DNA of 64,000 nucleotides, from NCBI RefSeq assembly GCF_009914755.1, contig NC_060947.1; one strand, written 5' to 3'. The DNA comes from the human T2T-CHM13v2.0 reference genome, Homo sapiens. Of the stretch, positions 11,793 to 53,600 are shown in pieces (positions within the stretch are counted from its first letter, which is position 1; each line of letters begins with the position of its first letter). Below the pieces are notes generated by a model that was not told the DNA's origin, made no database searches, and saw only the letters and a list, made by a program, of their open reading frames with translations. Made by a program: the position numbers and the translations under genes.

Positions 11793-15644
<3,852 letters not shown>

Positions 15645-15680
15645 TTAGTTGATGCAGTATCTTCCTAGTCTCGATGGTCT

Positions 15681-26145: not shown

Positions 26146-29100
26146 ATCTATGTTACTAAAATTCATTCAACACTGCATGAATATTTACAGTCCACTGATG
26201 CTCTGTTGTTGACTGTGTCAACATTGTCTGTGTTTTCCCTGATCATATTATAGATTCACATGTATTCATGTTACTATTCTGATTATTATAAACCTCCTAA
26301 ATCCAATGGTAAATGGAAGCAATAACTAAACAAAGAAACAAATGATGACTTAGCAGAGACCAGGTCTTTTCTGGTTCTTTTGTAGAGAAGAAAAGGGATC
26401 TATGAAGTCAGAGTTGGGGAAGTGAGGATGTACAAGTGAGGGGATACCTTGCAGAGTCTAGAATCAGCAGGGAGCTGCCTCCCTTCTCCTCTAGGCCATG
26501 GGGCTGAACCCTCCACATCCCCCCTCTCCTCCATCAACTACATTATATAGTCCACTGAAACACGCAGGTCTCTGGATAAGCTGCTGAAAGGGGACATAGA
26601 CATTGGAAGTCAGAATGGAACTGATCTATTTGGATTTGGAAATACTCATGAGTACCCAGACTTACAGATGATATTGTCTGGAGCATTATGGTGCAACATC
26701 CATAAGGTCTCTGGGAAAGCCTGCCTTATATTCCCACACAGAGGGTACAACAGCAGTAAACTCCACAACAGAGGGATATGCCTATCCCTGCGGTCCAGGT
26801 TAATGTTATAAGCAACTTTTGCCATTAGAATTGTCCTGACCTGAATCAGGATGCTAAGCATTAGTCTAGAGACAATGTGTGGCCAGACATAGCTTTGATT
26901 TGTTGGTGCATGTCTTGTGGGGCTATCTGAGGCATTTCCTGAATTCTTAATTATAAAGCAGTTTCCCCACTGCCAATCACAACCAGATATGATGATAGGT
27001 TGGCTAAGTATATATATTTAACAGGCTACAGAGAGAGCTATGAATACTCATGAAAGTAGTGATAAGCCCTGTCCAGTTCTTGAGACTGGATCAGCTTAAA
27101 TAGCTGTGTCTCATCCAGGAGGCGGCATTACAGATGGGCTAGGCCTCTGCCTCTGATGGAGACAAACAAATTTTTAATAAGAGGCATTTCTATGGAAACA
27201 GAAGAAAAACAAAGATTAATGTTGGGCACAATTTATTCAGATGTTAGACTCCAGGATCTTAATTATAGAGGAGGAAGGAAGAGGCAATCTGACACTTTTT
27301 TCTCACCTATGTTACAAGGAATAAGCTGCAGCTTGCAGGGCTTCAGGAAAAAGGTACTAGCAATTTCATTGAATCCAAGTCAGAAAAGTAAAAGAAAAAA
27401 TTGGAAAACATTAGTTTGGGGACTCATAGCCCGGAAATAATTTAGGATTCACTCCAAATTGTAGAAAATAATAAAAACTCAACAACAGTGAACAAAACTA
27501 GAATCTAACAATAAGTGTACTACATTTTTTTCCAAAACATACTTTTTCTCTCTCCAGTCCCTGTTTTTACTAAAGACAAATCACAGTAGGACAAATGTAT
27601 TTGCAAAATAAATTTTAGTCTTACTATTCTTGGCCTAAGTGTTTGCATAAAGTCAGCAGGAATAATTATTTGTCATATAGGCTCTTTTGAAAATTGGCTT
27701 TGCTGGAACTTTATTCCATAAGGAATCTTGGATTAGACTTTCAAAGCCTTGAGCCCAGCCATGGATTCATCTGTGCCTGCAATACTTGTATGATTTGGGT
27801 GAATTCCTCACTTCAGGTCCCAAGATAACTTGGAGCTCCTAGGCCTGTCAGAGAATGACATTCTTTACTTACCACAGGTCAAAAACCCTATACAGGGACT
27901 GCATAGACAATGCATGAGGCCAGTTTTTCCAAGGGGCTTTTATGGGCTTTATAAGTCAACTTTGATTCCTTAAAGCAGTATGAAAGTGTGCCATTCCAAC
28001 CAAAGCCTTGGTAAAGTAACCAGTATCTCCAGTTGTGTCTTGTTAGATAAGAAAACAGATTCTTATTGAACTTATGCAAATAACTTAAGTATACTAACAA
28101 ATGGTTTTAAAATTCTGGAGAAAGCAAGTAGAGGGAAAGAAATGTGTTTCAAGTTTTGCTCACAGGAGTGTACTTTATGCAATTGTTAAAAGCTGCAAAT
28201 AGCTCAAAAGAAAAAGTTTTTCTGGATTCTGAAAAACAAGAGTTAGCAATGTTTTAAACAAAATGCCATAAAAAGATTTTGGTCTTCTGTTGGTTCAGTC
28301 TATGTAATTAAGTCCTGTTCCACTCAATATTCATGAACACATTAGCTCTCTATGGGAGTCTTGGAAGTTTTGCCTCTATTCTGATGCCACAATCTCTGAA
28401 GTTATCAGAAACCTGCATTCAAGAGCAGCTCTCAGAGTCCTATAGCTGATTACAAAATCGTTTGAAAATAATCAAAGTAAAACAATTGTGGATGACAAAA
28501 GTCTTAGAATAACCATGATTAAAGTCTGAACATCTCTGTGGCATGCAGCAATTTAATATAACAATTATAATTATTACTTATATACTGAGACATAACAGAA
28601 TTGCAAGAATCATATACAATTTTGGAACACACACCAATAACACATTTATACAAATACAACCCAAAGAGATCTGAAAACCATTTTGTACTTGACAATACTT
28701 CCTGTATGATTTTAATATACAGAACAAGCTGAATATGTCCCTATTGGACTTTAGGGGACCCAATATCTAAAAGTGTTAACCAGATCAAAAAAGGGGGCTT
28801 AATTTAAAATCTGACTGTGGAAAGTTTGTCAAATATCAAAGGTTTAAACACTTAGTATTATAAAATAAAATTCTAGGTCACCATTAATAAAAGGGAAAAA
28901 TCTGTACTCATTAATAGAGGGGAAACAGCTTTCCAAACAGGACCCAATAAAGATGCATGAGGCCAGTTGAATCTGTCTCCTCTCCTCTCGCTTTTTTCTG
29001 TCATTTATTCCAAAGGTAAACAAAAATATTTCACTATCTTTTAATATTACATGCAAATCTTGTTCAAAAGAGAAAGCTAAATTTCACCTTTGTTTGCATT

Positions 29101-31046
29101 AGTGTACTATTAATGTTAAACCCAATTCTTAATAAAACCTTATAAACAAAATCTATCCAATCTTAATTAGTTTGACTATAAGGTAAAATTTCCAGAAACC
29201 TTTTATAATCCTTTACAGCTTTCTATTAAACAGCAGATCAATTCTCTAAGAAAACCCTGTTACTCAGACACAGGGGCCCAGATTCCGGCCCTGCATCAGT
29301 GTGCTTTCATTTCAATGTTCAACCCACAAAAAAACTAAATCATCCCTTTCAAATCTTAGGCAACTTGCTTATACCCACTGAACTTCGTTTATAAGATCCA
29401 CCCTTCACAAATTCTTCACAACTTGCTTAAACTTTCAGTTTTGTCCCATTACTCCTCTATGTTAGGACAATCTTAACCTCTGAACAAGACAAAATTACAT
29501 TCCCTTTAACAAAAACCATGTTTTCATGCCTTCTTATAATCTTTTACCAAAAACACATTCTACTTTCCTTACACACCTTGCATGTAAAACTATTTTTCCA
29601 GTAGTCGCAAGTACATATTACAATGTTAACTCTTAGCAACTTTTATTGTTGGTGAAAACCTGGCGAGTAAGCAATTTTAACCATGTATAAGATTGCAGAA
29701 CACATGACTTCCCAGCCTAGCCAGGGGGCCTGGCTAACTTCATATGTCCCCAGGCCTTACCTAGGATCTAATTGCTGTAAAACAGGCAAGTCAAGCAATT
29801 ACTAAAAGTCGTAGAAGCAGTTTATGACCTTAAAACATCTAGCAAACAGTATCCGATCCCCCCAATTTAGACCAAATATCTAAATTTTGAAGATATTTTT
29901 ATTTTACTTTACCAATAATCTTTAAGCTGTCTTTATTTTTCAAAGATTGTTAGAGACATTGTGACTTAAAAGGCATTAAAGTCTATTTTTCTGACAAAAT
30001 ATTTTATTTAAGTGCTTATCATTCTTAAGCCAATAAATTAGACCACTATCATATATTCTGGTAGCGAAACATCACACACATCATATATAAATACACAGAT
30101 ATGGAGATGATTTGGTAGGGTGACAAAAGATTAGATGCAAGAGGAAGGAGGAACAGACAGGAGCAGGTGCAGAATTAGACAGATATCCATCAACTGAGGA
30201 GGTTTTAGAGGCAGAGCAGGGGCTTTAAAACAATATCCATGCACATATAGTGCAAATATCAGCCTTAATTAAGTTGATTTCGAACTACAGAGCTCTCCAA
30301 AGGAGAATCATTTTAAAATATTTTATTACTAGATTTTAGTCAAGAGAAATGGCCAATATTTCTGGCTTTTGAATTCTTTTACCTCCTACATGAAATCAAT
30401 AAGCCTTAACTAATGGTATGACTTTACCACAGGTGCATGAAGTATCTTCAATGAGACAGCAAGCGGTTTTTACAAGATCTAGAATTGCTCCAAAGGTAGC
30501 TCAGAGAAAAGAAAATTTCAAGACAGGAAATCAGAAGCTGTCCATGGAAGGGAAAAGAACCAATAAATGGCAAAAAGTCACACACATAGCGAATGGGAAA
30601 GGACTAATTACCTAAGCTGGGAATTGAACCCAGGCTGCCAGTGTGAAAGGCCAGAATCTTAGCTCCTGAACTATTGCACAAGGTGACGACTACTGCTTCT
30701 TCCCAGGAGTCTAGAGCAGTCATTTTTGAGCTTGCAAATGATTTTAACTATTCAAGAAAATTTAGACTAGATATAACACAATCATGTGTCCTTTTTAGTC
30801 TCAAGAGTCAAAGCCCTGTAACTTAACGGCGCAAGGACTTTAAAGACAATACAGAAACTTACATGGATACAATAACCTTTTTAAGTCCATAATTTGAATT
30901 AGCTTTTAAATAACTTTTGAATTAGACAAAATTTTTTTTTGTCAATAAGAACATATTTTCCTTGTCACATTTTCTATAAAACTAGGAAGCAAGAAATTCT
31001 TTTTTTGAAAAAGTGAAAGCAATTTTATTAAGAAAGTAAAGGAATA

Positions 31047-34000
31047 GCCGGCTGTGTGGCAGCCCGCGAGGCGGTCCGCGGGAGCACACTCTGTGCAGAG
31101 ACTGGGCGGCCAGCCTGCCCTTGCTGTCGCTGACGGTGACTGCGGGAGGCCAGGTTGTTTTTCATCATTCAGAACATTGCCTGAAGCAGGTCCACCGTGC
31201 CGTTAGTAACGAGGAACATCGAGCCAAGGCACCTGTGCCGTCAGACGTTGCCTAGCGTTAGAAGCGAGCTGGAATGCGTGACCAACATCACCCTGGCAAA
31301 TGTCATCCGACAGCTGGGCAGCCTGAGTAAATATGCAGAGGACATTTTTGGAGAGCTCTTTACTCAGGCAAATACCTTTGCCTCTCCGGTAAGCTCCCTT
31401 GCTGAGAGGGTCGATGGACTACAAGTTAAAGTCACTCAGCTGGATCCCAAGGAAGAAGAAGTGTCACTGCAAGGAATCAACACCCGAAAAGCCTTCAGAA
31501 GCTCCACCATTCAAGACCAGAAGCTTTTTGACAGAAACTCTCTCCCAGTGCCTGTCTTAGAAACATACAATACCTGTGATACTCCTCCCCCTCTCAACAA
31601 TCTTACCCCTTACAGGGACGATGGAACAGAGGCACTCAAATTCTACACAGACCCTTCATACTTCTTTGATCTTTGGAAGAAGAAGATGCTGCAGGACACC
31701 AAGGATATCATGAAAGAGAAGAGAAAGCACAGGAAAGAAAAGAAAGATAATCCAAATCGAGGGAATGTAAACCCACGTAAAATCAAGACACGTAAGGAAG
31801 AGTGGGAGAAAATTAAGATGGGGCAAGAATTTGTGGAGTCCAAAGAAAAGCTGGGGCCTTTTGGGTATCCACCCACCTTGGTGTACCAGAATGGCAGCAT
31901 TGGCTGTGTTGAAAACGTGGATGCAAGTAGCTATCCACCACCATCACAGTCAGACTCTGCTTCTTCACCTTCTCCTTCCTTCTCCGAGGACAACTTGCCT
32001 CCTCCACCAGCAGAATTCAGTTACCCAGTGGACAACCAAAGAGGATCTGGTTTGGCTGGACCCAAAAGATCCAGTGTGGTCAGCCCAAGCCATCCACCAC
32101 CAGCTCCTCCTCTAGGCTCTCCACCAAGCTCTAAACCCGGGTTTGCTCCACCACCTGCCCCTCCACCACCCCCGCCTCCAATGATAGGCATCCCACCTCC
32201 ACCACCGCCTATAGGATTTGGGTCTCCAGGGACGCCTCCACCACCCTCAAGCCCATCTTTCCCACCTCACCCTGATTTTGCTGCCCCTCCACCTCTTCCT
32301 CCACCACCGGCAGCTGACTACCCAACTCTCCCACCACCTCCCTTGTCCCAGCCAACAAGAGGAGCACCTCCTCCTCCCCCTCCTCCTCCTCCGGGGCCCC
32401 CTCCTCCCCCTTTCACTGGTGCAGATGGCCAGCCTGCTGTACCACCACCGCTTTCTGACACCACCAAGCCCAAGTCCTCCTTGCCTGCCATAAGCGATGC
32501 CCATAGCGACCTGCTTTCAGCCATCTGTCAAGGTTTTCAGCTGCGCAGGGTTGAGGAGCAGCAGGAACAAGAGAAGTGGGATGTCGTGGGCAATGACGTG
32601 GCCACCATCTTGTCTCGTCGCATTGCTGTTGAGTACAGTGACTCAGAAGATGACTCCTCTGAATTTGATGGGGACGACTGGTCTAATTAACTCTTTCTGC
32701 CTGATGCCCACCTTCTTTTTCTTTCCTTCCTACTTGCCTTCTTTGATGCCAACCCCAACAGACCCATAGGGGAGAAAAGGGAGGAAAAACCTAATTTTAA
32801 GGGGCCGAAGCTTTCCCTGAAGCAACCAAAGCTATATCCAAGTGCTTCCTCCAAGTCACATGTATTTCCTCTTCCCATTGTCAGGCCCTGTGGGGCTCCT
32901 GAGATTCAGTAGCTGGGATGTTCCCTCTTTCCTTCAAGTGCCTGTTGCATGTTTAAAGGAAGGAGAAATCCCAAAGCAGATTCCTTTGATTGGGTTTCCG
33001 TTGGAGATGGGGCCTTCCCTTAGGAGCCATATTCAACTACAGTCTTCTAAAACCTGTGCCCTCAGCCACTTCGAATAATGCCAGCCACCTTCTGGTTCTA
33101 AAGCAGAGGGAGTGGCCTGAATGGACACAGCTGGCCCCTTTCCCGTACACTGAAAGGGCAGAGCAGGCCGAAGGCTCCAACGGCCAAACTGCCTCACCCT
33201 CTGCCCTAATCAGCAGGGTGGGCCTGCCTTTTGCTAAGCGATCTCTATGCCTGGGATTCCCTTTATTCCAGGAGACATTAAGCCTCTAAAGAATGTCTCA
33301 CCTCCTCTGCCCAAAAATGATGCTCTTCTGTAGGCTGGTGTTGTTGCTTCCCTCCCAGGATCCCTTTGGTGAGTGTGGTGTTCAGGATGCACCAGCACCA
33401 CCTCTACATGCTTTCAGGCAACACGGCCCAGTTTTAACCTCTAGTATCCATGACCAAACTATCCCTGACACATAAGGACAGGGGCCTCTTCTGGCTGTCA
33501 GGAGCAAAGCCTGAAGACTTGGAGCTGCAGGACTGGAAGAACAGTGGAGCCCCGTGGGTCCCACCCTTTAAGGATGCTGAGGCCTAGAGATGGGAAGTGA
33601 CTTGCTCAAGGTCACACAATTGGATAGTGACATAGCTAGAGCCCAGAGTTCCTGATTCCAAGTCACCTGTGCTTTCTGGGACCAAAGAATGGGCACCTGC
33701 TGGAGTCTTGGCAGAGCTTTCTTGGCTGTATTGCTACTCCAGACCTCACCATAGGTTGGGGTCCCAGTAGGAGGGCTCAGGGTCTGTGCCAGCCCTGTCA
33801 GTGCTGCTCAGATCTTCATAGCCTCTCTTGTCATTCTTTGTTGCCCCTTTTCTGTCACCAACCAACCACATAGCCTTGGGACCAGCCCCTCTGGGGGACC
33901 AGAAGTAGTGAGAGAAGGAAGGGGATAGGCAGCTTTGACAGGTGCTGTTTTCAATTCCTCTGCAACTCCTCCCCCTTTTATTTCCCCAATTTAAACAAAG

Positions 34001-36611
34001 ATTCTGCCAACTGTGGAAACTTCAGTCCCTCAGGCTGGCAGCTGTGCTGGTACCTGCCTGGGGGGGCCTGGCAGTCGTGAAGCAGGCTGAAAGGCAGAGG
34101 GGCTCCAGGTCCTGTTTCCAGCTCCCCTCACTGCACATGGTGAAGCTCCCTCCCTCCCCACTTTTCCCAGAGCTAATACACAGGTGCTATTATTCAGAAA
34201 AAAACTGGTCAGCTCTAACCAACAGTGAGGTTTCTTCTCTTCTGCCCTAACTATTGTGTAGCCTCTTATGCTGAAATTGGCTTCTGCCGGCTTATCTGGC
34301 TTTCAGAGCCCTGAAACAAAGAGAAACAGGATCTGTCCCTACCCAGCACAGCAAATGGTTGTAGTAATTGCCAAAGCCCTCGTAAAGCCCTCCGGCTTGA
34401 GGAGACAGTGTATAGTCATGAGTTCTGCCTCTGTGCCCTTGCTGGCCGCTTCCCCTTTGCCTTCTTTCCTGGAACTCAGGGTGTGGGGACTGAGCCTGTA
34501 GGGGCCAGCATGCCCTCCTGCTGTGGCCACTCCCAAGTGTGCCCTCTTCCCTCTCTCCAGATCAGGTGTCTCTAGCACAGGACTTGGCACCAAGCTCCAT
34601 GCTGAGACACCAGGCTATGTGGGCCCCCACCTTGTTTCCCAGCCTGTACCTTGGAAGCCGAAGGTGCTTTCATCAGAATCCTAAAATGGCCGTTGAAGGC
34701 GCCTGGGCCGCAGCCCAGCAGTAGCTGGAGAGGCAGGCAGAGGGCAGTGGTTCTCCCAAATAGGAGACCTGGGGCCTGGCCAGGCCAGGGTTTGGGCCTA
34801 ATGGCTTTGACTGAATTAACCCCATCCTCCTCCTTTCTGGAAAAGGGAGAGCTAGAGCCACTCACTGTCATTCTGCTCTGACCTTGAAGGGGGCGGTGTT
34901 GGCCTGGCTTCTGGAATGGACTGAGTCCATCGTGGAAAGGGCTGGGGGCAGGAGGAGGTGGGGAGGGGCACTGCCTGCGGAAGGTAGGATTAGATCATTA
35001 GCTCAGTGACCTCCTAGGGTTTCGATGTGCTGTGTTCTCATCCTACAGTTGGTTTGGTAATGATCTGCAAGTCCCGGAGAGCAACAGCAAAGCTCTGCCT
35101 GATGCTCTCATTAAAATCTATGCAGCCAAGTTCAGCACTTTGTCACAGCCGGCCTTGCGAAGCCTCCTCAGCTCGGGGGGCCGGGGACCCAGTGAGCTGG
35201 GAGGCCCTCTGGGCTCCACTTATGCATATGCACCAAAAAAAAAAAGGCTTCTTTAGACCCAGAGCCCTTTAAGATGATAAAGGACCCAATGCAGGTAATC
35301 CTGTTTTTGGACTCATGTAATGTAGAATGCTAAATTTAGTGATTATTTAATCTGGGCCTAAGCTAGTGAGAGTGTGGAACAATGGCCCATAATGACTCCT
35401 AAGCGGTGAAGCCAGGGGGCCTCCTCCCTTCCTGGTTCACCCCGCCCAGGGGACCTGCTCCCATTCCTATGGCCCTGGGGCCCAGCTTCCAATAGTGTCA
35501 GAAGTGACTTGTGGCTTTGCCTTGGTTGTGAGATGGGTACATTCTAAAGGAGCAGCCCGGGGGAGGGGGCAGGCTTAGCCAGCCCTTGGAGGCTCAGAGC
35601 AGCTGGCCCAGGCTCCAGCTCGCCTCCAGTGGAAGCCCGAGCGCCGTCAGAAACAACCCTGGCCAATGTCACCGCAGAGCCGAGGCGGTGTTGTCAGGGC
35701 TAATGTGAAATCTCTTCCCGTGGTGCTGATCCTCCGACTCTGCAGCACCAGCTTGGACAGACTGAGGTCTCTGTGGCTTTGCTGACTCTGCTTAAGCATT
35801 CCCACCGGGTCCCAGCTCTGCTCTAGGACTGCCTCCCACTGCGGCCCCTCACCTGACCTCAGGGCATGGGGAGGGAGGGAGCCAGTTCCCCAAGGCCAGG
35901 GGACTTTGCTCCTGAGAGATGTCAGGCTTCCTGGGGGCATCAGGCTTTGAGCTCTGCTGGGGTCCAGCTGACCTGGCACCAGGTGTTGCGCAGAGATGTG
36001 CCTCATTCTGTGCCTCCTGCCGTGTTCACTTTAACTGTGCCTCAGTGCGGGTTAGGGAATAATTTTGTCATTGTATTAAGTTTATCCAGTTAATTAACTT
36101 GAGGAACTAACCAATTTTTACCTTCTGTCTGGAATGATGTACATGTAGTAGAGTAAGCCATAATGTTCCCAAAGTGCCTTGTTTTCTCTGATACAAACAT
36201 ATTTATAAGGACGTATTCCAGTGGGTTCTTGGGTGTGTTTGCCACAACAAGATTTTAGGGAAGGGGTGTATGTGTAGTAGGGATGCCGTTTGAAAACAGG
36301 CCCTCTTCCCCTGAGGAAGGGAAAGGAACTCTTCAGTTGGAGATCTGGGCAGTGGGTTAAGCCAGACCCCTAAAGTGACCCTTTCCTCTTCTGCCCTATT
36401 CTTCTCAGACCCTCTGAAAGACATCCAATTTTTTTAAAGCCCTGTAGCTCCAAGCCTGGTCTCATTTGCTTCCCTGCCAGGCTCATTGTGTGTATACCAC
36501 ATTTGTGCCCCACTGACCTGAAGGTTCCATGTAACTGTATACACATGAATACTTAAATGCCAACATTTTAAATAATTTGATAAAGTCTTTGTAGCCACAA
36601 AAAAAAAAAAA
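31047..36611 (+). pseudogene. WASF4P: Processed pseudogene of WASF2 (WAVE2): 5'UTR, CDS, ~3.9-kb 3'UTR, polyA
   Basis: Intronless WAVE2-like ORF; A tail 36599-36611; TSD gtaaaggaata (31036-31046 / 36613-36623). Symbol is from recall of the X-linked WASF2 retrocopy. Confidence 0.85.
31197..32690 (+). CDS. Uninterrupted 497-codon WAVE2-like reading frame with GTG in place of the ATG (translation uncertain)
   Basis: WHD ([13 protein letters not shown]..), basic region, polyproline region, VCA ([22 protein letters not shown]). Confidence 0.55.
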
Positions 36612-36676
36612 CGTAAAGGAATAAAGAATGGCTACTTCATGGGTAAGAGCAGTGGCATGGGCTGCTCGACTGAGTA

Positions 36677-36684
36677 TATTTATA
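36677..36684 (-). promoter_or_regulatory. TATA box (TATAAATA) of the MER41 3' LTR
   Basis: Lies ~30 bp upstream of the position homologous to where the 5' R copy begins. Confidence 0.55.
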
Positions 36685-36704
36685 GTTATTTCTTGATTAT
36701 ATGC

Positions 36705-37070
36705 TGTATTAATCCGTTTTCACACTGCTATAAAAGAACTTCCCTGAGACTGGGTGATTTATAAAGGAAAGAGGTTTAATTGACTCAGTTTTGCGTGGCT
36801 GGAGAGGCCTCAGGAAATGTATAATTATGGCAGAAGGGGAAGCAGGCACCTTCTTCACAAGATGGCATGGGAGAAAAGAGCAGGGGAAACCGTCACTTAT
36901 AGAACCATCAGATCCTGTGAGAACTCACTCACTACCACGAGAACAGCATGGGGGAAACTGCCCCCATGATCCTGTCACCTCCCACCAGGTCCCTCCCTTG
37001 ACAGGTGGGAATTATGGGGATTACAATTAGAGATAAAATTTGGGTGGGGACACAGAGCCAAACCATATCA
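36705..37070 (-). mobile_element. THE1/MST-type MaLR solo LTR inserted in MER41 U3
   Basis: tgtatt...ccatatca termini; 5-bp TSD tatgc. Confidence 0.88.
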
Positions 37071-37103
37071 TATGCTAAACAACGGGTGGATTATTCATGA
37101 GTT

Positions 37104-37133
37104 TTCTGGGAAAGGGGTGGGGATTTCCCAGAA
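37104..37133. promoter_or_regulatory. Tandem GAS (STAT) motifs in the MER41 LTR
   Basis: TTCTGGGAA at 37104-37112 and TTCCCAGAA at 37125-37133, both TTCN3GAA. Confidence 0.65.
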
Positions 37134-40100
37134 CTGAGGGGTCCTCCTCTTTTTAGACCATATAGGGTAACTTCCAGACATTGCCATGGCATTTGTAAAC
37201 TGTCAAGGCACCGGTGGAAGTGTTTTTTAGCATGCTAATGGATTATAATTAGCGTATAATGAGCACTGAGGATTACCAGAGGTCACTTTCGCTGCCATCT
37301 TGGTTTTGGTGGGTTTTGACTGGCTTCTTTACTGTATGCTGTTTTATCAGCAGGGTCTTTGTGATCTGAATCTTGTGTGGACATTTTATTTCATCCTGTG
37401 AGATAAGAATGCCTAACCTCCTGGGAATGCAGCCCAGTAGGTCTCAGCCTTATTTTACCCAGCCCCTATTCAAGATGGAGTTACTCTGGTTCGAACACCT
37501 CTGACATATTCCCCCCTCCCTTTTACAAGGGAACCCTTAATCCTAGCAATTGTAGAGGGACAAAGATCCATCTTCTGTAATTTTCAGGCCAAACAGGGCG
37601 ATGACATTCCTGCCTAACTACTGGGGTGTCTTGTATCCAGGGTAGAGAGGAGCTCAGTGAGAAAACATCATTACACTGAGGGCCATTCATAACTCCGACT
37701 TCTGATCAAAGGTGATATCTGGAAGATTGGTATGTGTTCAATTTAAGAAAACATTGAGTAAGCTTACCTATCCAGCATTTCTACACAGAATACAGCAGGA
37801 ATATATTCCACAACAGTAAAGTAAAATAAGCAAAATTATTCTAAGTAAATGAAAAAAATAAGGCATTCAATGAACTGGGCAGCTGTTGGGACCAAACTGA
37901 TATGGGGTTGCTAGCCAATTCCAATATGTGCCCAGAATTAGAATATTGATCCAGATTTCTACAGTACCCATCCCTCTTGTTTCTTCTGAGCTCCAGTTAA
38001 AGATCACTGGTTGATTCACAGGAATAAGTAGGGTTAGTCTAAATTGCAGGAAAAAAAAAAACAAAAACAACTGATGAGACTAGAATCTAATAACAGGTGT
38101 GCCATAGTTCTTGAAACATAATTTTTCTCTTTCCAGTCTTCATTTTTATTAAAAACAAATCATAATAGGGCTAATTTGTTTATAAAATCAGCTTTAGTCT
38201 TATACTTGGCCTGTTTATTTGTATAAAGTGCAGCAAGAATAATTATTTTCACATAGGCTTTTTAAAAATTGGCTTTGATGAAACTTCGTTCCATAAAGAA
38301 TCTCAGATAAGACCTTTTTTAAAGCTGAGCCCCAGCCATGGGTTTGTACTGTCAAATGCCTATACGAGTCAGGTAAATTCCTCTCCTCTTGAGGTTCCAT
38401 AATTTTGGAACACATACCAATAACATATTTATTATAAATAAATAAATAAATAAATAAAACCTTTACTCATTAATACAGGGAAGACTTAGTTTTCCAAACA
38501 ATCTGTTTCTTTCCTTTCCTCTCTTTTTACTATAATTTATTCAAAAGGCAAACAAGAATCTTTCAATATTTTTAATATAACATGAAAATCTTGTTCAAGA
38601 GAGAAAGACAATTTCACCCTTTGCATTGGTGTGCTATTAATGTCAACCCCAATTCTTAATAAAACCTTATAGACAAATCTATCCAATTTTCATGCCTGAC
38701 CGTAAGGTAAGAGTCTCATAAACTTTTTATAACCCTTTACAGATTTTTGTTAAAGAACAGATCAGTGCTCTAAGAAAAACCTATTGTGCTTTTATTCCAA
38801 TGTTCAACTTATGAAAAAACTGAATACCCCTTTAACTTTAGCCAGTGTTCACACATAGAATTTCTTTTACAAGATTAATCCTTCATAAACCTTCCATAAG
38901 TTGCTCAAAAGTTTAGCTTTTTCCTATCAAACTTAAAACAAGACTTTAACCCTTTAATCTAGGCAAAAAAAAAAAAATCCACATTCCCATGCCTTCTTAT
39001 AATCTTTTATCAAAAACACATTTTACTTTCCTTACACACCTTGCATGTAAAACTGTTTCCTCAGTAGTTTCAATTACATGTTACAATATTAACTCTTAGT
39101 AACTTTTATTTTTGGTGAAAAACTTAGTAAGTAAGCAATTTTAATTATGTACTAGGTGTGGGGCTTAGGACACCAGACAGAAGTGCAGATAAAGTCTGAC
39201 TCTTTTCAGCATTGCTAGGGGTTATGGCTAACTCCACATGTCCCCAGGCCTTATGTAGAAACTAATGGCTCTAAAGCAGGTAAGTTGAACAATTTTCAAA
39301 AGTCAAAGAAATAACTTATGACCTTAAAGCATTCATCAAACCTAATATCTGACCTGCCTAATTTAGACCAAATGTCTAAATTTTGAAGACATTTTTATTT
39401 TACCAATAATCTTTAAAACTATCTTTATTTCTCAAAGATTACTAAAGTTATGTGAACTAAAAGGCATTACAGTTTTTATTTTTCTAACAAAATATTTGAT
39501 CACACATCACACACACACACAACACATATAAATACACAAACAGTCAGAAGATTCTGTAGTTGTAAGATTTTTCATTTGCCAGTTTTTGTTTCTCAATTGG
39601 ATTACTGGCTTCAGGGTAGAGCCCTTTGAGGAACAGGGCCAGGAAACCATTCAGTTTCAAGGGCCTAGTAAGCAGGCACAGCTGGAAGGCAAAACAGATC
39701 CCCCAAAATTAAGGGTCCCATTTTTATACCAGATCTTAGATCCCAAAGAGGAGGGAATCAGTCCATCTCCCATAAAAGCCCATAACTGCCATTAGCCAGC
39801 CCTAAAAGTATATTTCCTACTTAGTAATTAGACACCAAAGTTCTCTCATAATGCGAAGTAATTTCTGATACCCCCAAATGTCAAAAACATCAGACAACAC
39901 AATGTAAAACAGAACAGGGCCTTAGATTTTGGGAGAGATCTATCCACTTTCAATTCCTGGGGTTTCATGAGGAAAACAGAGGTTTTTCCCCAAACAGCGT
40001 GTGTGGCACCTCCTCTGTTTTCCCCAAAGAGTCCCAGCCTGTTAGAAATTTTCTTAGGTCCTCTCATGTATGCATCAAGAGTGGCAAGAAAACAAAATGG

Positions 40101-40863
40101 AGAAAAATGACTTTTCAGTTGACTGAAAAGAAAAACTTTTTCTCAAGAAAAACAAGATTTGAGAAAAAACCATAAAGGCCTTTTCAATATACCCATAGCT
40201 TGAATATCCACTTTTAATTAAGCTGACTTTTAACCATAGTGCTCTTTTTAAAAAAGTCTTTTAAAATTTCTTATTATCCAACTTTTAGCCAAGAAAAATG
40301 GTCAATATTTCTGGCTTTTGAACTTTACCAAAGATAACTTCCCAGGTGCTCAGAGAAAGGAAAATTCAAGAGGGAAGTCAGAAGTTGTTCATGGAGAGGA
40401 AGAGAATCAACAAGTGGCAAAGGTCACACAGATATCAACCAAAAAGTACTCATTCCCTAGACCGGGAATTGAGAGCCTGGGCTACCACTGTAAAATGGCA
40501 AAGCCTTAGCTACTGAGCTACAGCACTGAGCAGTTTTCATTGCTCTTCCTAGGAATCTAGAGTCAGCCAATTTTGAGCTTGCAAAGGTTTTTAACTGCTC
40601 TGGATAATTTTTAAGGCTAACTATAACATGAACTCCAAAATTCCTGTTCCCTTGATGGTGGAGACCAAGAGAAAGTACCACCCACCTGGTTACAAAGTCA
40701 AGCTCCCAAGGACATAAAACAAGATGAGAGGGAAACTTCATCCAGTTTTTTTTGTTTGTTTCACAGGTCTACAACCAGGAGTTTCAACATGTGGTCTTTG
40801 GGCAGGATGGTTGCTCTGAGTAACAGAAAATATAGGAAAGGGAAAGGAGAGAAAGAGAGAGAG

Positions 40864-41155
<292 letters not shown>

Positions 41156-43644
41156 AGAGAGAGAGAGAGAGAAAGCATTCCCTGCGGTGGGGAAGGTGAA
41201 GAGCTCAGGGAGGCCAGAGAAGGACCTACTCATTGAAGCAACACTGAATCAAAAGTTCAAATGGCCACTTGTCAGTTGTGAAGGGATCTTTTCCAGCAGT
41301 CCCATCAGCTCTCAAGTTTCCCCTTTTGGGAAGGAAGAAGTTCCCCATGTTCCACGGTCTTGTATATGCCTAATCCTGTCACCCACAGTCGTCAGCAAAG
41401 AGTATAAGACAGATTAATCCAAAGAGAATAGCGGTGGCATTAATCCATAATGCCAAATTCATTTTTAACCAAGAGGGACTTTACTGAGAGGGGCCTTTAA
41501 CCCTCTAAATCTTAGGAAGGACTCTAACCTTCCTAAATTGGGCCTGAGACCCAAGTTTGGTCAAGAAGCCTTGCCTTTTATTAAGATGGGCCTTTAACCC
41601 TCTCTATCTTAGGAGAGTCTATCCTAAGTTGGGCCTCTAACTCAATCCCACCCTTTACCCAGGTAAAATATACCCCACCACTTACCCAAAATCAGCCAGT
41701 TGGTGCTGCAGTCTATTTCCTCTGGATCAGGGGGTCTCCTCAGTAGAGTCCCTTTGTGGTTCACCAGGAAGATGTTAGTGGAAAGGGGTCCCAATCCAGA
41801 CCCCAAAAGAGGGTTCTTGGATCTCACACAAGAAAGAATTCAGGGCGAGTCCACAGAGTAAAGTGAAAGTTTATTGAGAAAATAAAGGGATAAAGAATGG
41901 CTACTCCATTGGCACAGCAGCCAGAAGCAAGAAGTTCTGAACTGCCTATCAGATATTACCATTTTATAAATGAGAACCAGTCCATAATTTTGGAACATGT
42001 TTCCTATATAATAACCCTTTCTTAGTTGGAAATGACCCAGACATTCAACAAGCATCTACAATGATTTTAAGAACTTAAATCATACAAAAAAGTTTTACTT
42101 AGAAGCATTTATCTCATTTATATGCATATAATTCTCCCATTTTTAACCGTTTACTTAGATTACTTCTGAAAACTGAGATCTTACCACAGAGGTAGTCATT
42201 ATTGAAAGTTAATTCCCTGTTAACCATTTTAAAGCTTGTGAACATCATGTGTTCATCTAAGTAAGAACCTTAAAGTTAAAACACATAGGCATTTTGTTGA
42301 TAACTCAGAAGGTTTAGCTATTTTCCTCAAACAATATTAAATGTCTTATCAAAAATTACACAAAGATCATTCTGTCTTGGGCTGGGTTTATAGTTTTGTA
42401 ACTCTTATGCCAAATTTTGGCACCTAATGATATCTGGCAGAGATAAATATGAAACCGCTTGATCAATAAGCTCAAATGAAAATGTATGTTGACAATTCTT
42501 AAGATATTTATAATATTATTTTACCAATAATGTAAAGCCAGCTTATTTATTAAAGATTTTACTTAATTTATGAGTATGTCTTAACTCTAAGGAATTTGGT
42601 TCCTTGTGACCACAATACATAACAAAATACATGTACATATGCATAAACACACACATACACACTCATATTAAGCAGGCCGAAAATAAACAGAGGAAGATAT
42701 CACCTGGCTGCCTTCTGCAAGGGTGGCATGAGGTAGGGGGAGAGAGGGGAAGAAAGAGATGAGAGAATAAAGCAATGGAAAGGGAGCTCAGGAGCCCTCC
42801 TGCAGACATTGAGTGGTGTGAGGTTGATACTTCCACCACCATCATTTATCTCCCATCAGGGAGAGCCTCAGCACCCTAAGTCTGCACAGTGTGGGATGGG
42901 TTCCTCCTACTTCTGCAAGTCACTGGTCAGGCAAACTGTTTCCAGCCAGAGGGAGCTAGAGCTGCCTGCAGCTGAGAAGAGTAAAGCTGTAAGCGGCTCT
43001 CCAAAGATAGAAGGGTGAAGTTGGAGGTAGAGAGGAAAGAAATCAGGGCCCATACACAAAGTCATATATTCATATATGCAAATAGACAGCATGCTTCCAC
43101 ATGAGTCCCCAACCAAGGGGGCTGGGTGAGGTCCTGAATCCCTCTCCCCAGTTCCAAATGGCTCCATGGGCTGTTAAGTCCAGTCCGAGCACAGGTCCCA
43201 TGGTGCCGCACATACAAATAAATACAAATGCATTAAAATGCTCAAATGATGTCACTAACAGCCAGGTCTTAAGTAGAGCAGGGCTTCAGTGACACCCCAA
43301 AAGAGACAGAGGGTGGTCAGGTGCACTGCCAACCAAATTACCCAGTTCCAAAGTTTGTCAGCTCTTTCTCTTTTTCTCCCAGAATTCACTTCCCTTGCAC
43401 AGGCAATGCATTGAAGGCAGCAAATGTTGTGCTGGGAGTGGGGAGCAAAAGGGAAATTTCCCCATAAGAAAGCATTTTTTGCAGCTGCTGGGAAGCTCCC
43501 TAATGCTTTCATCGTGGGACCTGATAGCCATGAGCAGCTGGCACTCACAGGTGACCCCATGTCTCATCTGATAGCGAAATTGGGTGGTCAGGCAGAAGCC
43601 TACCTGGAGCACAGAGCATGTCCCTGTATGGGCCACCAAAAATT

Positions 43645-48310: not shown

Positions 48311-48678
48311 TGATATGGTTTGACTGTGTCCCCACCCAAATCTCATCTTGAATTATAGCTCCCATAATTCCCATGTGTTGTGGAAGGACCTGGTGGGAGA
48401 TAATTGAATCACAGGGGCAGTTTCCCCCATATGGTTCTCATGGTAGTGAATAAGTCTCGCGAGAGCTGATGATTTTATAAGGGGTTTCCCCTTTCACTTG
48501 TCTCTCATTCTCTCTTGTCTGCCACCATGTAAGACGTGCCTTTTGCATTCCGCTTTCCACCATGATTGTAAAGCCTCCCCAGCCACATGGAACTGTGAGT
48601 TCATGAAACCTCTTTTTCTTTATAAATTACCCAGTCTCAGGTATGTCTTTATCAGCAGCATGAAAACAGACTAATATA
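48311..48678 (+). mobile_element. THE1 solo LTR
   Basis: 'tgatatggtttgactgtgtccccacccaaatctc'; TSD gtgaa. Confidence 0.9.
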
Positions 48679-50648: not shown

Positions 50649-53600
50649 GACTTCTAGTTTCAGCTCTGACATGTTAAGAGCTTGGAAGTAATCACTCCCA
50701 TCCTTGCAAAAATAATAAAGGCTGAACAAACTGAAACTCAATGACTTTTCATAGGCCGTCAGAGAGTTTAGGTCACAAGGCAAACTGCCACCCCCAAATC
50801 TGGAGAGACAGACAAATACAGAGAATCACAGCTGAGATCAGCTTACTTTACCTGGAGCAGAAGCTGCTGGATCCCTAAGCAGATAGGAACACTTCACTGG
50901 TGATTTTGACAAATTGCTAGAGGCTGAATATGAATAGCTTGAGAATGAGAAACCTCTTATGGAGGTCTCACGCTTTCCTGGGTTTTACCTCCAGAAAGCC
51001 AAGAAGGTCCTCAGATGAAGATCTAAAGACAATCCCCTCACGTTTCTGGCAAGAGGAGGGCAGGAGGGTAAGAGGGTTCAAGTTGCCATTTTGAAACACA
51101 CTCAGAGCTTTCTCTATAACGAAGGACTGCTCTCTAGGGGAAGAAATTTTTCCAGAGACTTGTCTACCTGGGTGAAGGGCACCCAGTCAAAAACATCCTG
51201 TATAATCTAAGGGGAGAAAAAAAGGCTAAGAAATACTTTTGAAGGTCACAGCCCAGAGACTAAGGCCCACAAAGAGAGTGAGATTTAATCATAAGATAAT
51301 GGAACATTTCCTCTCTTTCACTCCTTACTACTGCAGTATAATAACAGTGAATTAAAACTGAAAGAGCTGCAAGACACAGACCCTATTTAATGAAGGCGTT
51401 CTTAGGGAAACTCAAAGACACCAGGGGAGGGAAAAAATAAGAACACTGGAGAAACCTGAAGCCTCTGGCATCTAGAACTACAGCAAACATTAAACACAGA
51501 CCAGCTCCTAGATTAACATAAAACCTCATACTAAAGATCTGTATTTGTTAGATACCTGATACATCATGTCCAGCATTCAACAAAAAATTATAAAACCATG
51601 CTAAAAGACAAGAAAAAATATAGTCTGAAGAGGCAAAGCAAGCATCAGAACCAGACTCGGATATGACACAGATTTTGAAATTATCATGTAGCGCATTTAA
51701 GAGAACTATGATTAATATGTTAAAGGCTCTAATGTAAAATGTGGACAACATGTGAAAACAAATGGGTAATTTAAGAAGAGAGATAGGAACTCTAAGAAAA
51801 TCAAGAGGAAATGCTAGAAATAAAAAAACACTATAACAGAAATGAAAGAATGGCTTTTGTGGGCTTGTAAGTAGCCTGGACATAGCAGAGGAAAGAATCA
51901 GTGAGCTTGAAGAAAGGTCAATAGAAACGTCTCAGATTGAAAAGCAAGGATAAGAAAAAATGAAAAAAAAGCACAACAGAATTTCCAAGAACTGTGGGAT
52001 AATTACAAAGAGTGTAAAATATGCATAATTGGAAAGCAAAAAGAGAAGAGAGGAAGGAGCAGAAGAGAAATATTTGAAGAAATAATGGCAAGAATTCTAC
52101 AAAATTAATGGCAAACACCAAACTGCAGATCCAGTAAGCAGGATGTCTTAGTCCACTTAGTGTTGTTATAAAGGAATACCTGAGGCCGGGTTATTTATAA
52201 AGAAAAAAAGATTTATTTGGCTCATGATTTGGATGATTGGAAAGTTCAAGATTGGGTATCTGCACCTGGTGAGGGTCTCAGGGTGCCTCTACTCATAGTG
52301 GAAAGCTGGCATGTGCAGAGATCACATGGTGAGAGAAGAAGGAAGGGAGAGTGGGTAGGTGCCAGACTCATTTTAACAACCAGCTCTCCTGGGAACTAAT
52401 AGAGTATAAATTCACTCATCGATGAGAGAGAGCATTAATCTACTCATGAGGGATCCACCTCCATGACCCAAACACCTCCCATTAGGCCCCTCCCCCAACA
52501 CTGGGGATCAAATTTCAACACGAGGTTTGGAGGGAACAAACATCCAAACCATAGCACAAGATAAATACCAAAACAATCTACACTAGTCGTATGATAGTCG
52601 CACTGAAGAAAACCAACAACAGAGAAAATATTGAAAGAATCCAGAGGAGAGGGAATCTTACCACTAGAAGAACAAGATTAAGAATTACATTGGACTACTT
52701 GTTGGAAACCATGAAAACAGTAAGAGAGTGGAGAGGCACACTTAAAGTGTCAAAAGGAAAAACCCAACAACCTAAATTCTAGATCCAGTGAAATTATCCT
52801 TCGAAAATGAAGGAGAAATAAAGACTTTCAGATAAACGAACACTGAAGAAATTCATTGCCAGTAGATCTGCCTTGCAAGAAATGTTGAAAGGGGTTCCTC
52901 AGGGAGAAGGAAAATAATCTAGGTCAGAAACTCAGATCTACTAGGAAGGAAGAGGAAGAATAATTAAAGTTAAAATATTTTATTTTTCTTATCTTATTCT
53001 TAATTGATCTAATAGACAACTGTTCAAAGTAATGTATTATATATACGATTATAGCATATTTATAAGTGAAATAAATGACAGCAACATTATAAAGGATGAG
53101 AGGAAGGAATTGGGAATGCTCAGCTATAAAGTACCTGTACAACCCATGAAGCAGTATAGTGTTAGTTGAAAGTGGACTTAGATTAGTTGTAAATGTATAT
53201 TGAAAAGTCTACGGCAACTGCTAAAAAATATTTTTAAAAAGTGTAATTGATAGAGGAGAGAGGAGAGAAAATGGAATCATATAAAATGATTAATTAAAAC
53301 CAAAGAAGGCAGAAAAAAGGGGAAGATAAAAAAGGAAAAAGTACAAGTACAATAAATAGAAAACAGTTTAAAAGATGGTAGATAATTAAACTACATCAAT
53401 CATCGCCTTAAATGTATTAGTCTGTTTTCACACTGCTATAAAGAACTGCCCAACACTGGGTAATTTATAAAGGAAAGAGGTTTAATTGATTCACAGTTCA
53501 GCATGGTTGGGGAGGCCTCAGGAAACTTACAATCATGGCAGAAGGCAAAGGGGAAACAGGGAACCTTCTTCACAAGGCGGCAGGAAGGAGAATGAACACA

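What the first reader, a model, noticed from the sequence alone, without database searches (positions are those of the whole stretch)
31001..37140. Possible interferon-inducible antisense-WASF2 transcription unit assembled by nested insertion
Seen: the whole 5.6-kb WASF2 cDNA lies in the R region of the MER41 3' LTR in the opposite orientation. It sits between the TATA/TSS (~36684/36654) and the LTR AATAAA (31024-31029). Two intact GAS motifs lie ~420 bp upstream of the TATA, pushed away by a THE1-type LTR. Known: MER41 LTRs with tandem GAS sites act as STAT1/IFN-gamma-responsive elements. Inference (untested): firing of this LTR would give a polyadenylated, full-length antisense copy of WAVE2 mRNA that could form dsRNA/siRNA or regulate WASF2 in trans.
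Basis: partly seen in the sequence, partly recalled or inferred. Interest (0 to 1): 0.75.

Follow-up and report, generated by a model that had tools for sequence, protein, structure and literature searches.

The report
WASF2 pseudogene nested antisense in MER41 LTR
A dead copy of the WASF2 (WAVE2) messenger RNA sits backwards inside the promoter-bearing end of an old retroviral element, so an antisense WASF2 RNA is possible on paper, but nothing found here shows that it is made or does anything.

Summary
The anatomy is confirmed almost to the base. A 5.55-kb WASF2 retrocopy (WASF4P, + strand, 31047-36598, A13 tail, 11-nt target-site duplication) lies in the R region of a minus-strand MER41-type U3-R. 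It is 43 nt below the inferred start site (~36655; TATAAATA at 36684-36677) and 17 nt above AATAAA (31029-31024). A 366-bp THE1-type solo LTR (36705-37070) separates two GAS motifs (37104-12, 37125-33; centres 21 bp apart) from the TATA box by 420 bp.

New here: the MER41 element (41923-31001) is not an integrated provirus. It is an L1-made processed copy of a MER41 transcript (R-U5-internal-U3-R-A7, 15-nt duplication). This maps the start and poly(A) sites independently and shows that U5 is missing.

The functional claim remains untested, and the hints lean against it:
- The published list of 4,446 STAT1 sites in IFN-gamma-treated HeLa cells has no site here.
- The supplied annotation has no minus-strand gene.
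- No paper found mentions an antisense WASF4P RNA.
- Three canonical poly(A) hexamers lie en route (1.3 expected).
- Keeping both GAS motifs is common (14 of 29 sampled copies).

Complementarity to WASF2 is real (96.2%). The most likely reading is an inert nested retroelement pile. LTR-driven antisense pseudogene RNAs are a known kind.

The parts
30986..31000 (.). 3' copy of the 15-nt target-site duplication of the MER41 processed element (minus strand AGAATTTCTTGCTTC)
   Evidence: 14 of 15 identical to 41924-41938; 0 of 300 shuffles reach this length
31001..41923 (-). L1-processed copy of a MER41 transcript: R-U5 / internal / U3-R / A7. It is interrupted by a THE1-type LTR and by the WASF2 retrocopy, and is about 4.98 kb without the two insertions.
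31000..31006 (-). A7 remnant of the poly(A) tail of the MER41 processed copy (T7 on the + strand)
31010..31046 (-). distal part of MER41 R, with AATAAA at 31029-31024. Homology to other copies ends 13-21 nt after the hexamer, and there is no U5.
31036..31046 (.). left copy of the retrocopy's target-site duplication GTAAAGGAATA
   Evidence: an overlap of about 11 nt between pieces B and C in other copies
31047..36598 (+). WASF2 processed retrocopy (WASF4P), from first-exon sequence to the end of the 3'UTR. It is 96.2% identical to the parent over 5,447 aligned positions.
31197..32690 (+). former WASF2 reading frame: 497 codons open, but the start codon is ATG->GTG; pairwise dN/dS is 0.60
36599..36611 (+). 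A13 poly(A) tail of the retrocopy
36613..36623 (.). right copy of the retrocopy's target-site duplication
36613..36704 (-). MER41 core promoter and proximal R: TATAAATA at 36684-36677, inferred start site ~36655 (+/-3)
   Evidence: the TATA box lies 29 nt upstream of the position matching the 5' ends of processed copies
36705..37070 (-). THE1-type (MaLR) solo LTR, 366 bp, TG..CA ends, 5-bp duplication TATGC (36700-04 and 37071-75), own ATTAAA on the minus strand at 36780
   Evidence: the family name and orientation are recalled, and are consistent with the position of the poly(A) hexamer
37071..37506 (-). MER41 U3 upstream part, with tandem GAS motifs at 37104-37112 and 37125-37133
   Evidence: PMC2897888
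37507..41779 (-). MER41 internal region (purine tract 37524-37507 next to U3). No Pfam domain in 12 of 12 ORFs of at least 70 aa.
41780..41923 (-). R-U5 at the 5' end of the processed MER41 copy (no U3 upstream)
41924..41938 (.). 5' copy of the 15-nt target-site duplication of the MER41 element
35346..35351 (-). first canonical poly(A) hexamer (ATTAAA) met by a minus-strand transcript, 1.3 kb from the start site
33977..33982 (-). internal AATAAA on the minus strand
33262..33267 (-). internal AATAAA on the minus strand

Best explanation
This is a three-layer pile of retroelements with no demonstrated function.

First, L1 machinery copied a polyadenylated MER41 retroviral transcript into Xp11.3 (minus strand, 41923-31001). 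The 5' end of that copy has no promoter. Its 3' end carries a complete U3-R promoter cassette followed by a poly(A) tail and no U5.

Later, a THE1-type LTR element integrated into U3 and survives as a solo LTR. It split the tandem GAS pair from the TATA box.

Roughly 15-25 million years ago (inferred from 4.3% 3'UTR divergence and a recalled neutral rate), L1 inserted a full-length WASF2 mRNA copy into R, on the opposite strand.

On paper this places TATA, then start site, then 5.55 kb of antisense WASF2, then AATAAA. The retrocopy itself evolves as a neutral pseudogene.

The most likely state of the minus-strand 'unit' is silent, or only incidentally and weakly transcribed, with no selected role in WASF2 control. 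Shown: the anatomy, the insertion order, and neutral evolution of the retrocopy. Inferred: lack of function.
For: Anatomy and empty-site proof.

Processed nature of the MER41 copy:
- R-U5 lies at 41923-41780 with no U3 upstream.
- U3-R ends 13-21 nt after AATAAA in an A-run.
- A 15-nt duplication flanks the element; 0 of 300 shuffles reach it.
- The same architecture recurs in other copies. 17 of 29 end in A-runs after R, 10 of 29 continue into U5 and 2 are unclear. Duplications abut both ends in 4 of the 6 elements tested, the window's included.

Neutral pseudogene:
- The start codon is lost (ATG->GTG).
- There are 25.5 nonsynonymous and 13.5 synonymous differences, giving dN/dS 0.60. That is about what a neutral copy set against a constrained parent should give.

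No sign of selection for the antisense unit:
- The antisense body holds 3 canonical poly(A) hexamers against 1.29 expected.
- Keeping both GAS motifs is ordinary: 14 of 29 sampled copies keep two, 8 keep one and 7 keep none.

No sign of activity:
- The 4,446-site list for IFN-gamma-treated HeLa cells has no STAT1 site near this locus.
- The supplied RefSeq table has no minus-strand gene.
- Searches for WASF4P and WASF4 gave 3 and 5 papers, none on an antisense RNA.
- WASF is absent from the supplements of a survey of pseudogenes with antisense ESTs (PMC2984423).
- There is no Rfam family in 27000-43000.
Against: Every element needed for LTR-driven antisense transcription is present and looks usable:
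- The TATAAATA box is closer to the textbook TATA consensus (recalled) than the TATAAG or CATAAAAA seen at that place in most sampled copies.
- The start-site region is intact.
- Both GAS motifs keep the 21-bp spacing.
- The terminal AATAAA has the most U-rich downstream context of the four hexamers.
- A second LTR (THE1-type) in the same orientation sits 20 nt upstream of the TATA box.

The absence evidence is weak. It rests on one cell line, an old short-read ChIP-seq list with a 50-tag cut-off, and a gene table. I had no expression data, CAGE or chromatin data. MER41 LTRs can give rise to lncRNAs (BANCR is cited in PMC11905727, passage read).
Confidence: 0.75

Rival explanations
1. IFN-gamma/STAT1 activates the MER41 U3. 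Transcription starts at ~36655, runs antisense through the whole retrocopy and is polyadenylated at the LTR AATAAA. The resulting ~5.65-kb RNA pairs with WASF2 mRNA (as dsRNA, endo-siRNA or trans-NAT) and regulates WAVE2.
For: - The cassette is complete on paper.
- The tandem GAS motifs have the 21-bp spacing that marks IFN-gamma-induced STAT1 binding in MER41B (PMC2897888).
- Identity to WASF2 mRNA is 96.2%, with 2,476 of 5,427 21-mers shared exactly and runs of up to 193 nt.
- Retrocopy-derived trans-NATs and endo-siRNAs have precedents (PMC5408686, passages read).
Against: - There is no STAT1 site in the HeLa list.
- The GAS pair lies 420 bp from the TATA box.
- Three canonical poly(A) hexamers lie en route, and only one strong 5' splice-site-like motif precedes the first of them.
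- U5 is missing.
- No minus-strand gene is annotated and no paper was found.
- Recalled, not checked here: the robust oocyte endo-siRNA pathway depends on a rodent-specific Dicer isoform.
Confidence: 0.05
2. Enhancer only. The MER41 U3 with its GAS pair binds STAT1 in some cell types and acts at a distance on neighbouring genes (for example the ZNF cluster), not as a promoter. The retrocopy is a bystander.
For: In the papers read here, MER41 elements are described chiefly as inducible STAT1-binding or enhancer elements (PMC2897888; PMC11905727). The GAS pair is intact.
Against: The locus is not in the HeLa STAT1 list. In the supplied table, RefSeq functional elements fall at 34313-34943 and elsewhere, not on the GAS pair. 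The nearest gene listed, ZNF81, starts about 27 kb away.
Confidence: 0.1
3. Incidental, short minus-strand transcripts. In germ line, early embryo or hypomethylated tumours, the MER41 core promoter or the THE1-type LTR fires. The RNAs end early, at the THE1 ATTAAA (36780) or at the internal hexamers, and have no effect on WASF2.
For: Two same-strand LTRs lie in tandem, with TATA and poly(A) hexamers. A neighbouring full-length L1 is reported as active in bladder cancer (PMC7763009, table row read), so the region can be derepressed.
Against: No transcript data were seen. LTR activity of MaLR elements in oocytes and embryos is recalled, not checked here.
Confidence: 0.15
4. The sense WASF4P RNA matters instead. 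It would act as a decoy for microRNAs that target the WASF2 3'UTR, possibly driven from upstream, for example by the L1 antisense promoter about 13 kb away.
For: The 3'UTR keeps 95.7% of aligned bases. WASF4P reads are reported in iPSC and neuron RNA-seq (PMC3431331, passage read). The decoy mechanism is known for other retrocopies (PMC5408686).
Against: The retrocopy brought no promoter with it. At 96% identity, reads may be mis-mapped WASF2. PMC3431331 itself lists WASF4P among the odd exceptions. The L1 antisense promoter idea is inference only.
Confidence: 0.05

Closest known systems
Retrocopy-derived trans natural antisense transcripts (PTENP1 antisense RNA; the NOS pseudogene antisense RNA of Lymnaea; mouse oocyte pseudogene endo-siRNAs such as the Ppp4r1 retrocopy)
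   Same: A processed pseudogene lies next to a foreign promoter on its antisense strand, with high complementarity to the parental mRNA (96.2%). The mechanisms are as reviewed in PMC5408686.
   Different: Those cases have observed antisense RNAs or small RNAs and measured effects on the parent. Here no transcript has been seen. The putative promoter is an interferon-type LTR, which I did not find described for such a pair.
MER41B-type STAT1-binding LTRs (Schmid & Bucher 2010, PMC2897888)
   Same: There are two GAS motifs with centres 21 bp apart. The published MER41B-derived MEME motif M2 matches at 25 of 26 positions.
   Different: The M2 motif is split by the THE1-type LTR. The GAS pair lies 420 bp from the core promoter. 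This copy is not among the 4,446 HeLa sites.
HERV-W processed pseudogenes made by L1
   Same: The structure is R-U5-internal-U3-R-poly(A), with a 15-nt duplication and no 5' U3. MER41 is placed in the same HERVW9 supergroup in PMC4724089.
   Different: The family is different. The abstract of PMC5537654 (search listing only) calls HERV-W the sole HERV group mobilised by L1. Here 17 of 29 sampled MER41 copies show this form.
LTR-initiated lncRNAs (for example the MER41-derived BANCR)
   Same: An LTR would supply the promoter and first exon of a non-coding RNA.
   Different: BANCR is an observed RNA (cited in PMC11905727). Here the unit is hypothetical.

Membership tests
L1-mediated processed pseudogene (the WASF2 retrocopy WASF4P) | Colinear with the spliced mRNA, no introns | tested here: met
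   Nine parental exon matches on G000:C1 abut along 31048-36598
L1-mediated processed pseudogene (the WASF2 retrocopy WASF4P) | 3' poly(A) tail and flanking target-site duplication | tested here: met
   A13 at 36599-36611; 11 of 11 nt duplicated at 31036-46 and 36613-23; empty site in other LTR copies
L1-mediated processed pseudogene (the WASF2 retrocopy WASF4P) | Loss of coding constraint | tested here: met
   ATG->GTG; dN/dS 0.60 against the parent. The 497-codon frame is still open, as is plausible at 2.6% divergence.
L1-mediated processed pseudogene (the WASF2 retrocopy WASF4P) | L1 endonuclease-type target (TTTT/AA-like) | tested here: inconclusive
   The junction can be read with an 11- to 14-nt duplication, and an extra C lies at 36612. 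The motif depends on that reading. The consensus is recalled.
MER41 (MER41B-type) LTR | Two GAS sites with 21-bp centre-to-centre spacing | tested here: met
   Centres at 37108 and 37129; the criterion is from PMC2897888
MER41 (MER41B-type) LTR | Match to a published MER41B-derived sequence motif (M2, 26 nt) | tested here: met
   25 of 26 positions when read across the THE1 insertion and its duplication
MER41 (MER41B-type) LTR | Member of a multicopy LTR family joined to a shared internal sequence | tested here: met
   Over 40 genomic matches at 76-84% identity, of 4,030 first-look candidates with 40 scored; internal part matched
MER41 (MER41B-type) LTR | Assignment to a subfamily by Dfam or RepeatMasker | not testable with these tools
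   No repeat library was on hand, so the subfamily label remains provisional
L1-processed copy of a retroviral RNA (HERV-W-like processed pseudogene) | 5' end at R with no U3; 3' end at R with poly(A) and no U5; long duplication | tested here: met
   (15-nt duplication, 14 of 15 identical, 0 of 300 shuffles)
THE1-type MaLR solo LTR | TG..CA ends, 5-bp duplication, similarity to other copies | tested here: met
   366 bp; TATGC duplicated; 80.6% identical to 53416-53791 and 72% to 48311-48675. The family name is recalled.
IFN-gamma/STAT1-responsive element | STAT1 occupancy after IFN-gamma | tested here: not met
   No chrX site between 46,873,864 and 48,317,633 (hg18) among the 4,446 HeLa sites. 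This covers one cell line with a high cut-off. The hg18 position of the locus is estimated, not lifted over.
IFN-gamma/STAT1-responsive element | Interferon-induced transcription from the element | not testable with these tools
   No expression or CAGE data were on hand
Pseudogene-derived trans-NAT or endo-siRNA source | Observed antisense transcript | tested here: inconclusive
   None in the hub's RefSeq table. None in the 3 WASF4P papers (passages read). Nothing in the listing of the 5 WASF4 papers. WASF is not in the supplements of PMC2984423. No raw data were examined.
Pseudogene-derived trans-NAT or endo-siRNA source | Extensive complementarity to the parental mRNA | tested here: met
   96.2% over 5,447 nt; 84 perfect runs of at least 21 nt
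Pseudogene-derived trans-NAT or endo-siRNA source | Effect on the parental gene | not testable with these tools
   This needs an experiment

The most novel reading that the evidence does not exclude
In catarrhine primates, an interferon-type retroviral promoter (MER41 U3 with a tandem GAS pair) was wired by chance to a full-length antisense copy of WASF2. STAT1 activation, or derepression of the two tandem LTRs, would then produce a ~5.6-kb RNA 96% complementary to WAVE2 mRNA. That RNA would dampen WAVE2-dependent actin remodelling, or feed dsRNA sensors, during immune responses.

A second, independent novelty: MER41 RNA was mobilised by L1 on a large scale, so HERV-W would not be the only retroviral family with processed pseudogenes.
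Probability: 0.05. Interest if true: 0.7.

Novelty: new member of a known kind. Interest (0 to 1): 0.25.

Why it matters
If the antisense unit were active, it would be a primate-specific, interferon-linked regulator of WAVE2, a core actin-nucleation factor. It would also be a clean example of a regulatory RNA built purely from three chance retroelement insertions.

As it stands, it is a well-resolved example of nested retroposition around an annotated pseudogene. Its practical value is threefold:
- It gives exact coordinates and 206 substitutions plus indels that distinguish the paralogues, for anyone who wants to test it.
- It warns that WASF4P reads in RNA-seq are easily confused with WASF2.
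- It leads to a side observation that many MER41 copies are L1-processed. This gives a base-level map of the MER41 start and poly(A) sites, and it sits uneasily with the printed statement that HERV-W is the sole HERV group mobilised by L1.

Tried and rejected
- The search of earlier findings was not open.
- The paper I recalled as Chuong et al. 2016 was asked for under a PMC id given from memory and was not held. Its lists of STAT1-bound MER41 elements could therefore not be checked.
- Blast of the LTR pieces against the window found no second full LTR, only a 30-nt match at 41883-41912. That match led to the R-U5 end.
- Pfam gave nothing for 12 of 12 ORFs of the MER41 internal region. Rfam gave nothing for 27000-43000.
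- I looked for an ISRE in U3 and found none, only one GAAAGT half-site.
- PMC6473030 (MER41 in promoters of intellectual-disability genes) mentions neither ZNF81 nor WASF.
- PMC2584115 (retrocopy survey) does not mention WASF.
- Rejected: that the open 497-codon frame signals a protein-coding retrogene. The start codon is lost and dN/dS is 0.60.
- Rejected: that the AT-rich stretch 38030-39500 is a foreign insertion. It matches MER41 internal sequence in other copies.
- Of 12 upstream regions fetched to find the 5' ends of other processed copies, only 6 held an R-U5 match within 8 kb. One of these is masked by an Alu-like sequence at its end. Duplications were clear in 3 of those 5 usable copies, plus the window.
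- Splice-site strength was not modelled. Only a crude consensus search was done, and it gave one hit.


Full report
**1. What is there**

Reading 30400-38400 and scanning for motifs shows a GC-richer block from about 31050 to 36600. It ends in A13 (36599-36611) and is flanked by a perfect 11-nt direct repeat, GTAAAGGAATA (31036-46 and 36613-23).

A search of the window's own genome places the source on contig C1 at 27.245-27.331 Mb, minus strand. The hits are nine exon-sized matches that abut along the window sequence. The first 104 nt match the most upstream exon at 93%. The coding exons match at 96-99%. The last exon (3'UTR) matches at 94.5% over 4,114 aligned columns. The only other matches of more than about 100 nt are two distant ones, on C13 (75%) and C6 (67%), which I take to be paralogues. 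The remaining 20 rows are 43-45-nt matches (86-89%) to one short repetitive stretch.

This is therefore a single, full-length processed retrocopy of WASF2, the annotated WASF4P. RefSeq ends WASF4P at 35423. Homology to the parental 3'UTR continues to 36598, so the annotation is 1,175 nt short.

**2. State of the retrocopy**

The former reading frame (31197-32690) is open for 497 codons, but it begins with GTG where the parent has ATG. Against the parent there are 39 substitutions and one in-frame 3-nt gap in 1,494 coding positions. Of the substitutions, 13.5 are synonymous and 25.5 nonsynonymous, giving dS 0.0385, dN 0.0229 and dN/dS 0.60. That is about what a neutral copy compared with a constrained parent should give.

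The 3'UTR differs at 166 of about 3,900 aligned sites (4.26%), plus 54 gap bases. With a recalled neutral rate of about 1-1.2 x 10^-9 per site per year per lineage, the insertion would be roughly 15-25 million years old. This is an inference. No other primate genome was available.

Overall identity is 96.2% over 5,447 positions. There are 84 perfect runs of at least 21 nt, the longest 193 nt, and 2,476 of 5,427 21-mers are shared exactly.

**3. The host element**

Right of the retrocopy, the minus strand reads as an LTR.

First, a genome search with 37071-38030 gave more than 40 matches at 76-84% identity, from 4,030 first-look candidates of which 40 were scored. It is therefore a multicopy LTR joined to a shared internal sequence.

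Second, PMC2897888 (passages read) states that the MER41B consensus carries two high-scoring GAS sites 21 bp apart, centre to centre. The window has TTCNNNGAA at 37104-12 and 37125-33, with centres at 37108 and 37129.

Third, Table 1 of that paper prints a 26-nt MEME motif (M2) that resembles MER41B. The window matches 25 of 26 positions when read across the THE1 insertion and its duplicated 5 nt.

Subfamily assignment by a repeat library was not possible.

**4. Empty-site proof of the nesting**

I blasted the three window pieces of the LTR separately against 29 other copies. The pieces are A (37520->37071), B (36707->36612) and C (31047->~31000). They were never joined.

In the other copies the end of A and the start of B overlap by about 5 nt. 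The end of B and the start of C overlap by about 11 nt. These overlaps equal the duplications TATGC (36700-04 and 37071-75) and GTAAAGGAATA. Piece A matched in 29 of 29 copies, B in 27 of 29 and C in 27 of 29.

The 366-bp insert between A and B (36705-37070) has TG..CA ends on the minus strand. It is 80.6% and 72% identical to two other copies in the window, at 53416-53791 and 48311-48675. The name THE1-type MaLR LTR and its minus orientation are recalled. They are consistent with an ATTAAA hexamer on the minus strand 75 nt from the LTR's 3' end.

**5. New: the MER41 element is itself a processed copy**

Piece C stops matching other copies 13-21 nt after AATAAA. On the minus strand it is followed by A7 (31006-31000).

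At 41923-41780 lies an R-U5 segment with no U3 upstream, followed by internal sequence. The internal sequence matches other elements along its whole length. It has no Pfam domain in 12 of 12 ORFs of at least 70 aa.

The two ends are flanked by a 15-nt duplication, 14 of 15 identical (41924-38 and 30986-31000). None of 300 shuffles reached that length. The structure R-U5-internal-U3-R-poly(A) plus a long duplication is that of an L1-made copy of a retroviral transcript.

The form is common among the sampled copies. 17 of 29 end in an A-run right after R, 10 of 29 continue into U5 and 2 are unclear. Of 12 upstream regions fetched, 6 held an R-U5 start within 8 kb and 5 of these were usable. Duplications abut both ends in 3 of those 5, plus the window.

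The sample is the top of a similarity ranking, not a census.

**6. Start site and poly(A) site**

The 5' ends of the processed copies fall within about 3 nt of one another. In the window's U3-R that position corresponds to ~36655. This is 29 nt downstream of the first T of TATAAATA (36684-36677).

Most sampled copies have TATAAG or CATAAAAA at that place. A loose TATA-like pattern was present in 22 of the 27 copies that aligned.

The retrocopy sits 43 nt below the start site and 17 nt above AATAAA, that is, inside R as claimed.

**7. Would the unit work?**

A minus-strand RNA from 36655 to about 31006 would be 5,650 nt long. On the way it meets ATTAAA at 35351, AATAAA at 33982 and AATAAA at 33267. 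That makes 3 canonical hexamers, against 1.29 +/- 1.13 expected from first-order Markov simulations, so there is no depletion.

None of the three has a U- or GU-rich downstream region (13, 8 and 7 U in 45 nt). The terminal AATAAA has the most U-rich context. This copy lacks U5, where (recalled, for retroviruses in general) the downstream element lies.

Only one strong 5' splice-site-like motif (35855) precedes the first hexamer. Full-length read-through is therefore possible but not favoured by anything in the sequence.

The GAS pair meets the minimal pattern. It is the same pair (TTCTGGGAA and TTCCCAGAA) as in three other sampled copies. Keeping both motifs is ordinary: 14 of 29 copies keep two, 8 keep one and 7 keep none. 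U3 has no ISRE.

**8. External evidence**

The File S1 list of 4,446 STAT1 sites in IFN-gamma-treated HeLa cells (hg18; PMC2897888 supplement) has 93 chrX rows. I read rows 1-60. None lies between 46,873,864 and 48,317,633. I estimate, without a liftover, that the locus lies at about 47.5 Mb in that assembly. This is one cell line, with short reads and a 50-tag cut-off.

The supplied RefSeq table lists no minus-strand gene between 31 and 37 kb.

Three papers name WASF4P. One lists it only as a neighbour of an active L1. One lists it as an odd allele-biased X-linked call in iPSC and neuron RNA-seq. One names it in a network listing. Five papers name WASF4 (listing only), and none appears to deal with an antisense RNA. 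WASF does not occur in the supplements of a survey of pseudogenes with antisense ESTs.

Retrocopy-derived trans-NATs, PTENP1 antisense RNA and oocyte endo-siRNAs are established kinds (PMC5408686, passages read).

**9. Verdict**

The most likely reading is an inert nested pile of retroelements: a MER41 processed copy, then a THE1-type solo LTR and a WASF2 retrocopy. The order of the last two is not resolved.

I put about 5% on the full interferon-antisense model. I put about 15% on incidental short minus-strand transcripts and about 10% on an enhancer-only role.

The side observation may be worth a census. Many MER41 copies are L1-processed, while an abstract (PMC5537654, listing only) calls HERV-W the sole HERV group mobilised by L1. 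A search for 'MER41' together with 'processed pseudogene' gave 14 papers. I read passages in two of them, and neither states it.

Noticed in passing
L011-L039 and L040-L051 (own genome); window 31001-41923: Many MER41 internal-plus-LTR copies are L1-processed copies of the viral RNA. Of 29 sampled copies, 17 end in an A-run right after R and 10 continue into U5. Duplications of 12-16 nt abut both ends in 4 of the 6 elements tested. An abstract (PMC5537654, listing only) calls HERV-W the sole HERV group mobilised by L1. I did not find MER41 processed copies described in the two papers I checked, out of 14 that hold both terms.
   Followed up: partly
window 11793-16697 (minus strand): This is a full-length L1 with both reading frames open: ORF1 of 338 aa at 15681-16697 and ORF2 of 1,274 aa at 11793-15617. 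It is probably the element listed next to WASF4P (UID-135) as expressed in bladder cancer in PMC7763009 (table row). The RefSeq 'enhancer' at 16741-17303 falls in its 5' region. Its antisense promoter, if active, would point towards WASF4P in the sense direction; this is inference.
   Followed up: partly
window 31048-36598 against the annotation 31048-35423: RefSeq's WASF4P span ends 1,175 nt before the end of the homology to the WASF2 3'UTR and before the A13 tail.
   Followed up: yes
window 31197-32690: The WASF4P frame is still open for 497 codons despite 39 substitutions and a 3-nt gap, but the start codon is GTG. A dN/dS of 0.60 points to neutral drift rather than a retrogene.
   Followed up: yes
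window 27443-30007: This stretch is 72-75% identical, in the same orientation, to part of the MER41 internal region (38029-39500). It lies just beyond the 3' end of the processed copy. It may be a fragment of a second, related element.
   Followed up: no
window 34313-34943: A RefSeq functional-element 'enhancer' lies inside the retrocopy's 3'UTR-derived part, in a stretch with perfect runs of 84-193 nt shared with WASF2. Signals there may be affected by cross-mapping with the parent gene.
   Followed up: no
window 5207-5629, 48311-48675, 53416-53791: Further THE1-type LTR copies or fragments lie in the window, 72-81% identical to the one at 36705-37070.
   Followed up: no
PMC3431331 (passage): In iPSC and neuron RNA-seq, WASF4P was one of three X-linked exceptions to maternal-only expression. 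With 96% identity to WASF2, this looks like paralogue cross-mapping rather than true expression; this is inference.
   Followed up: no
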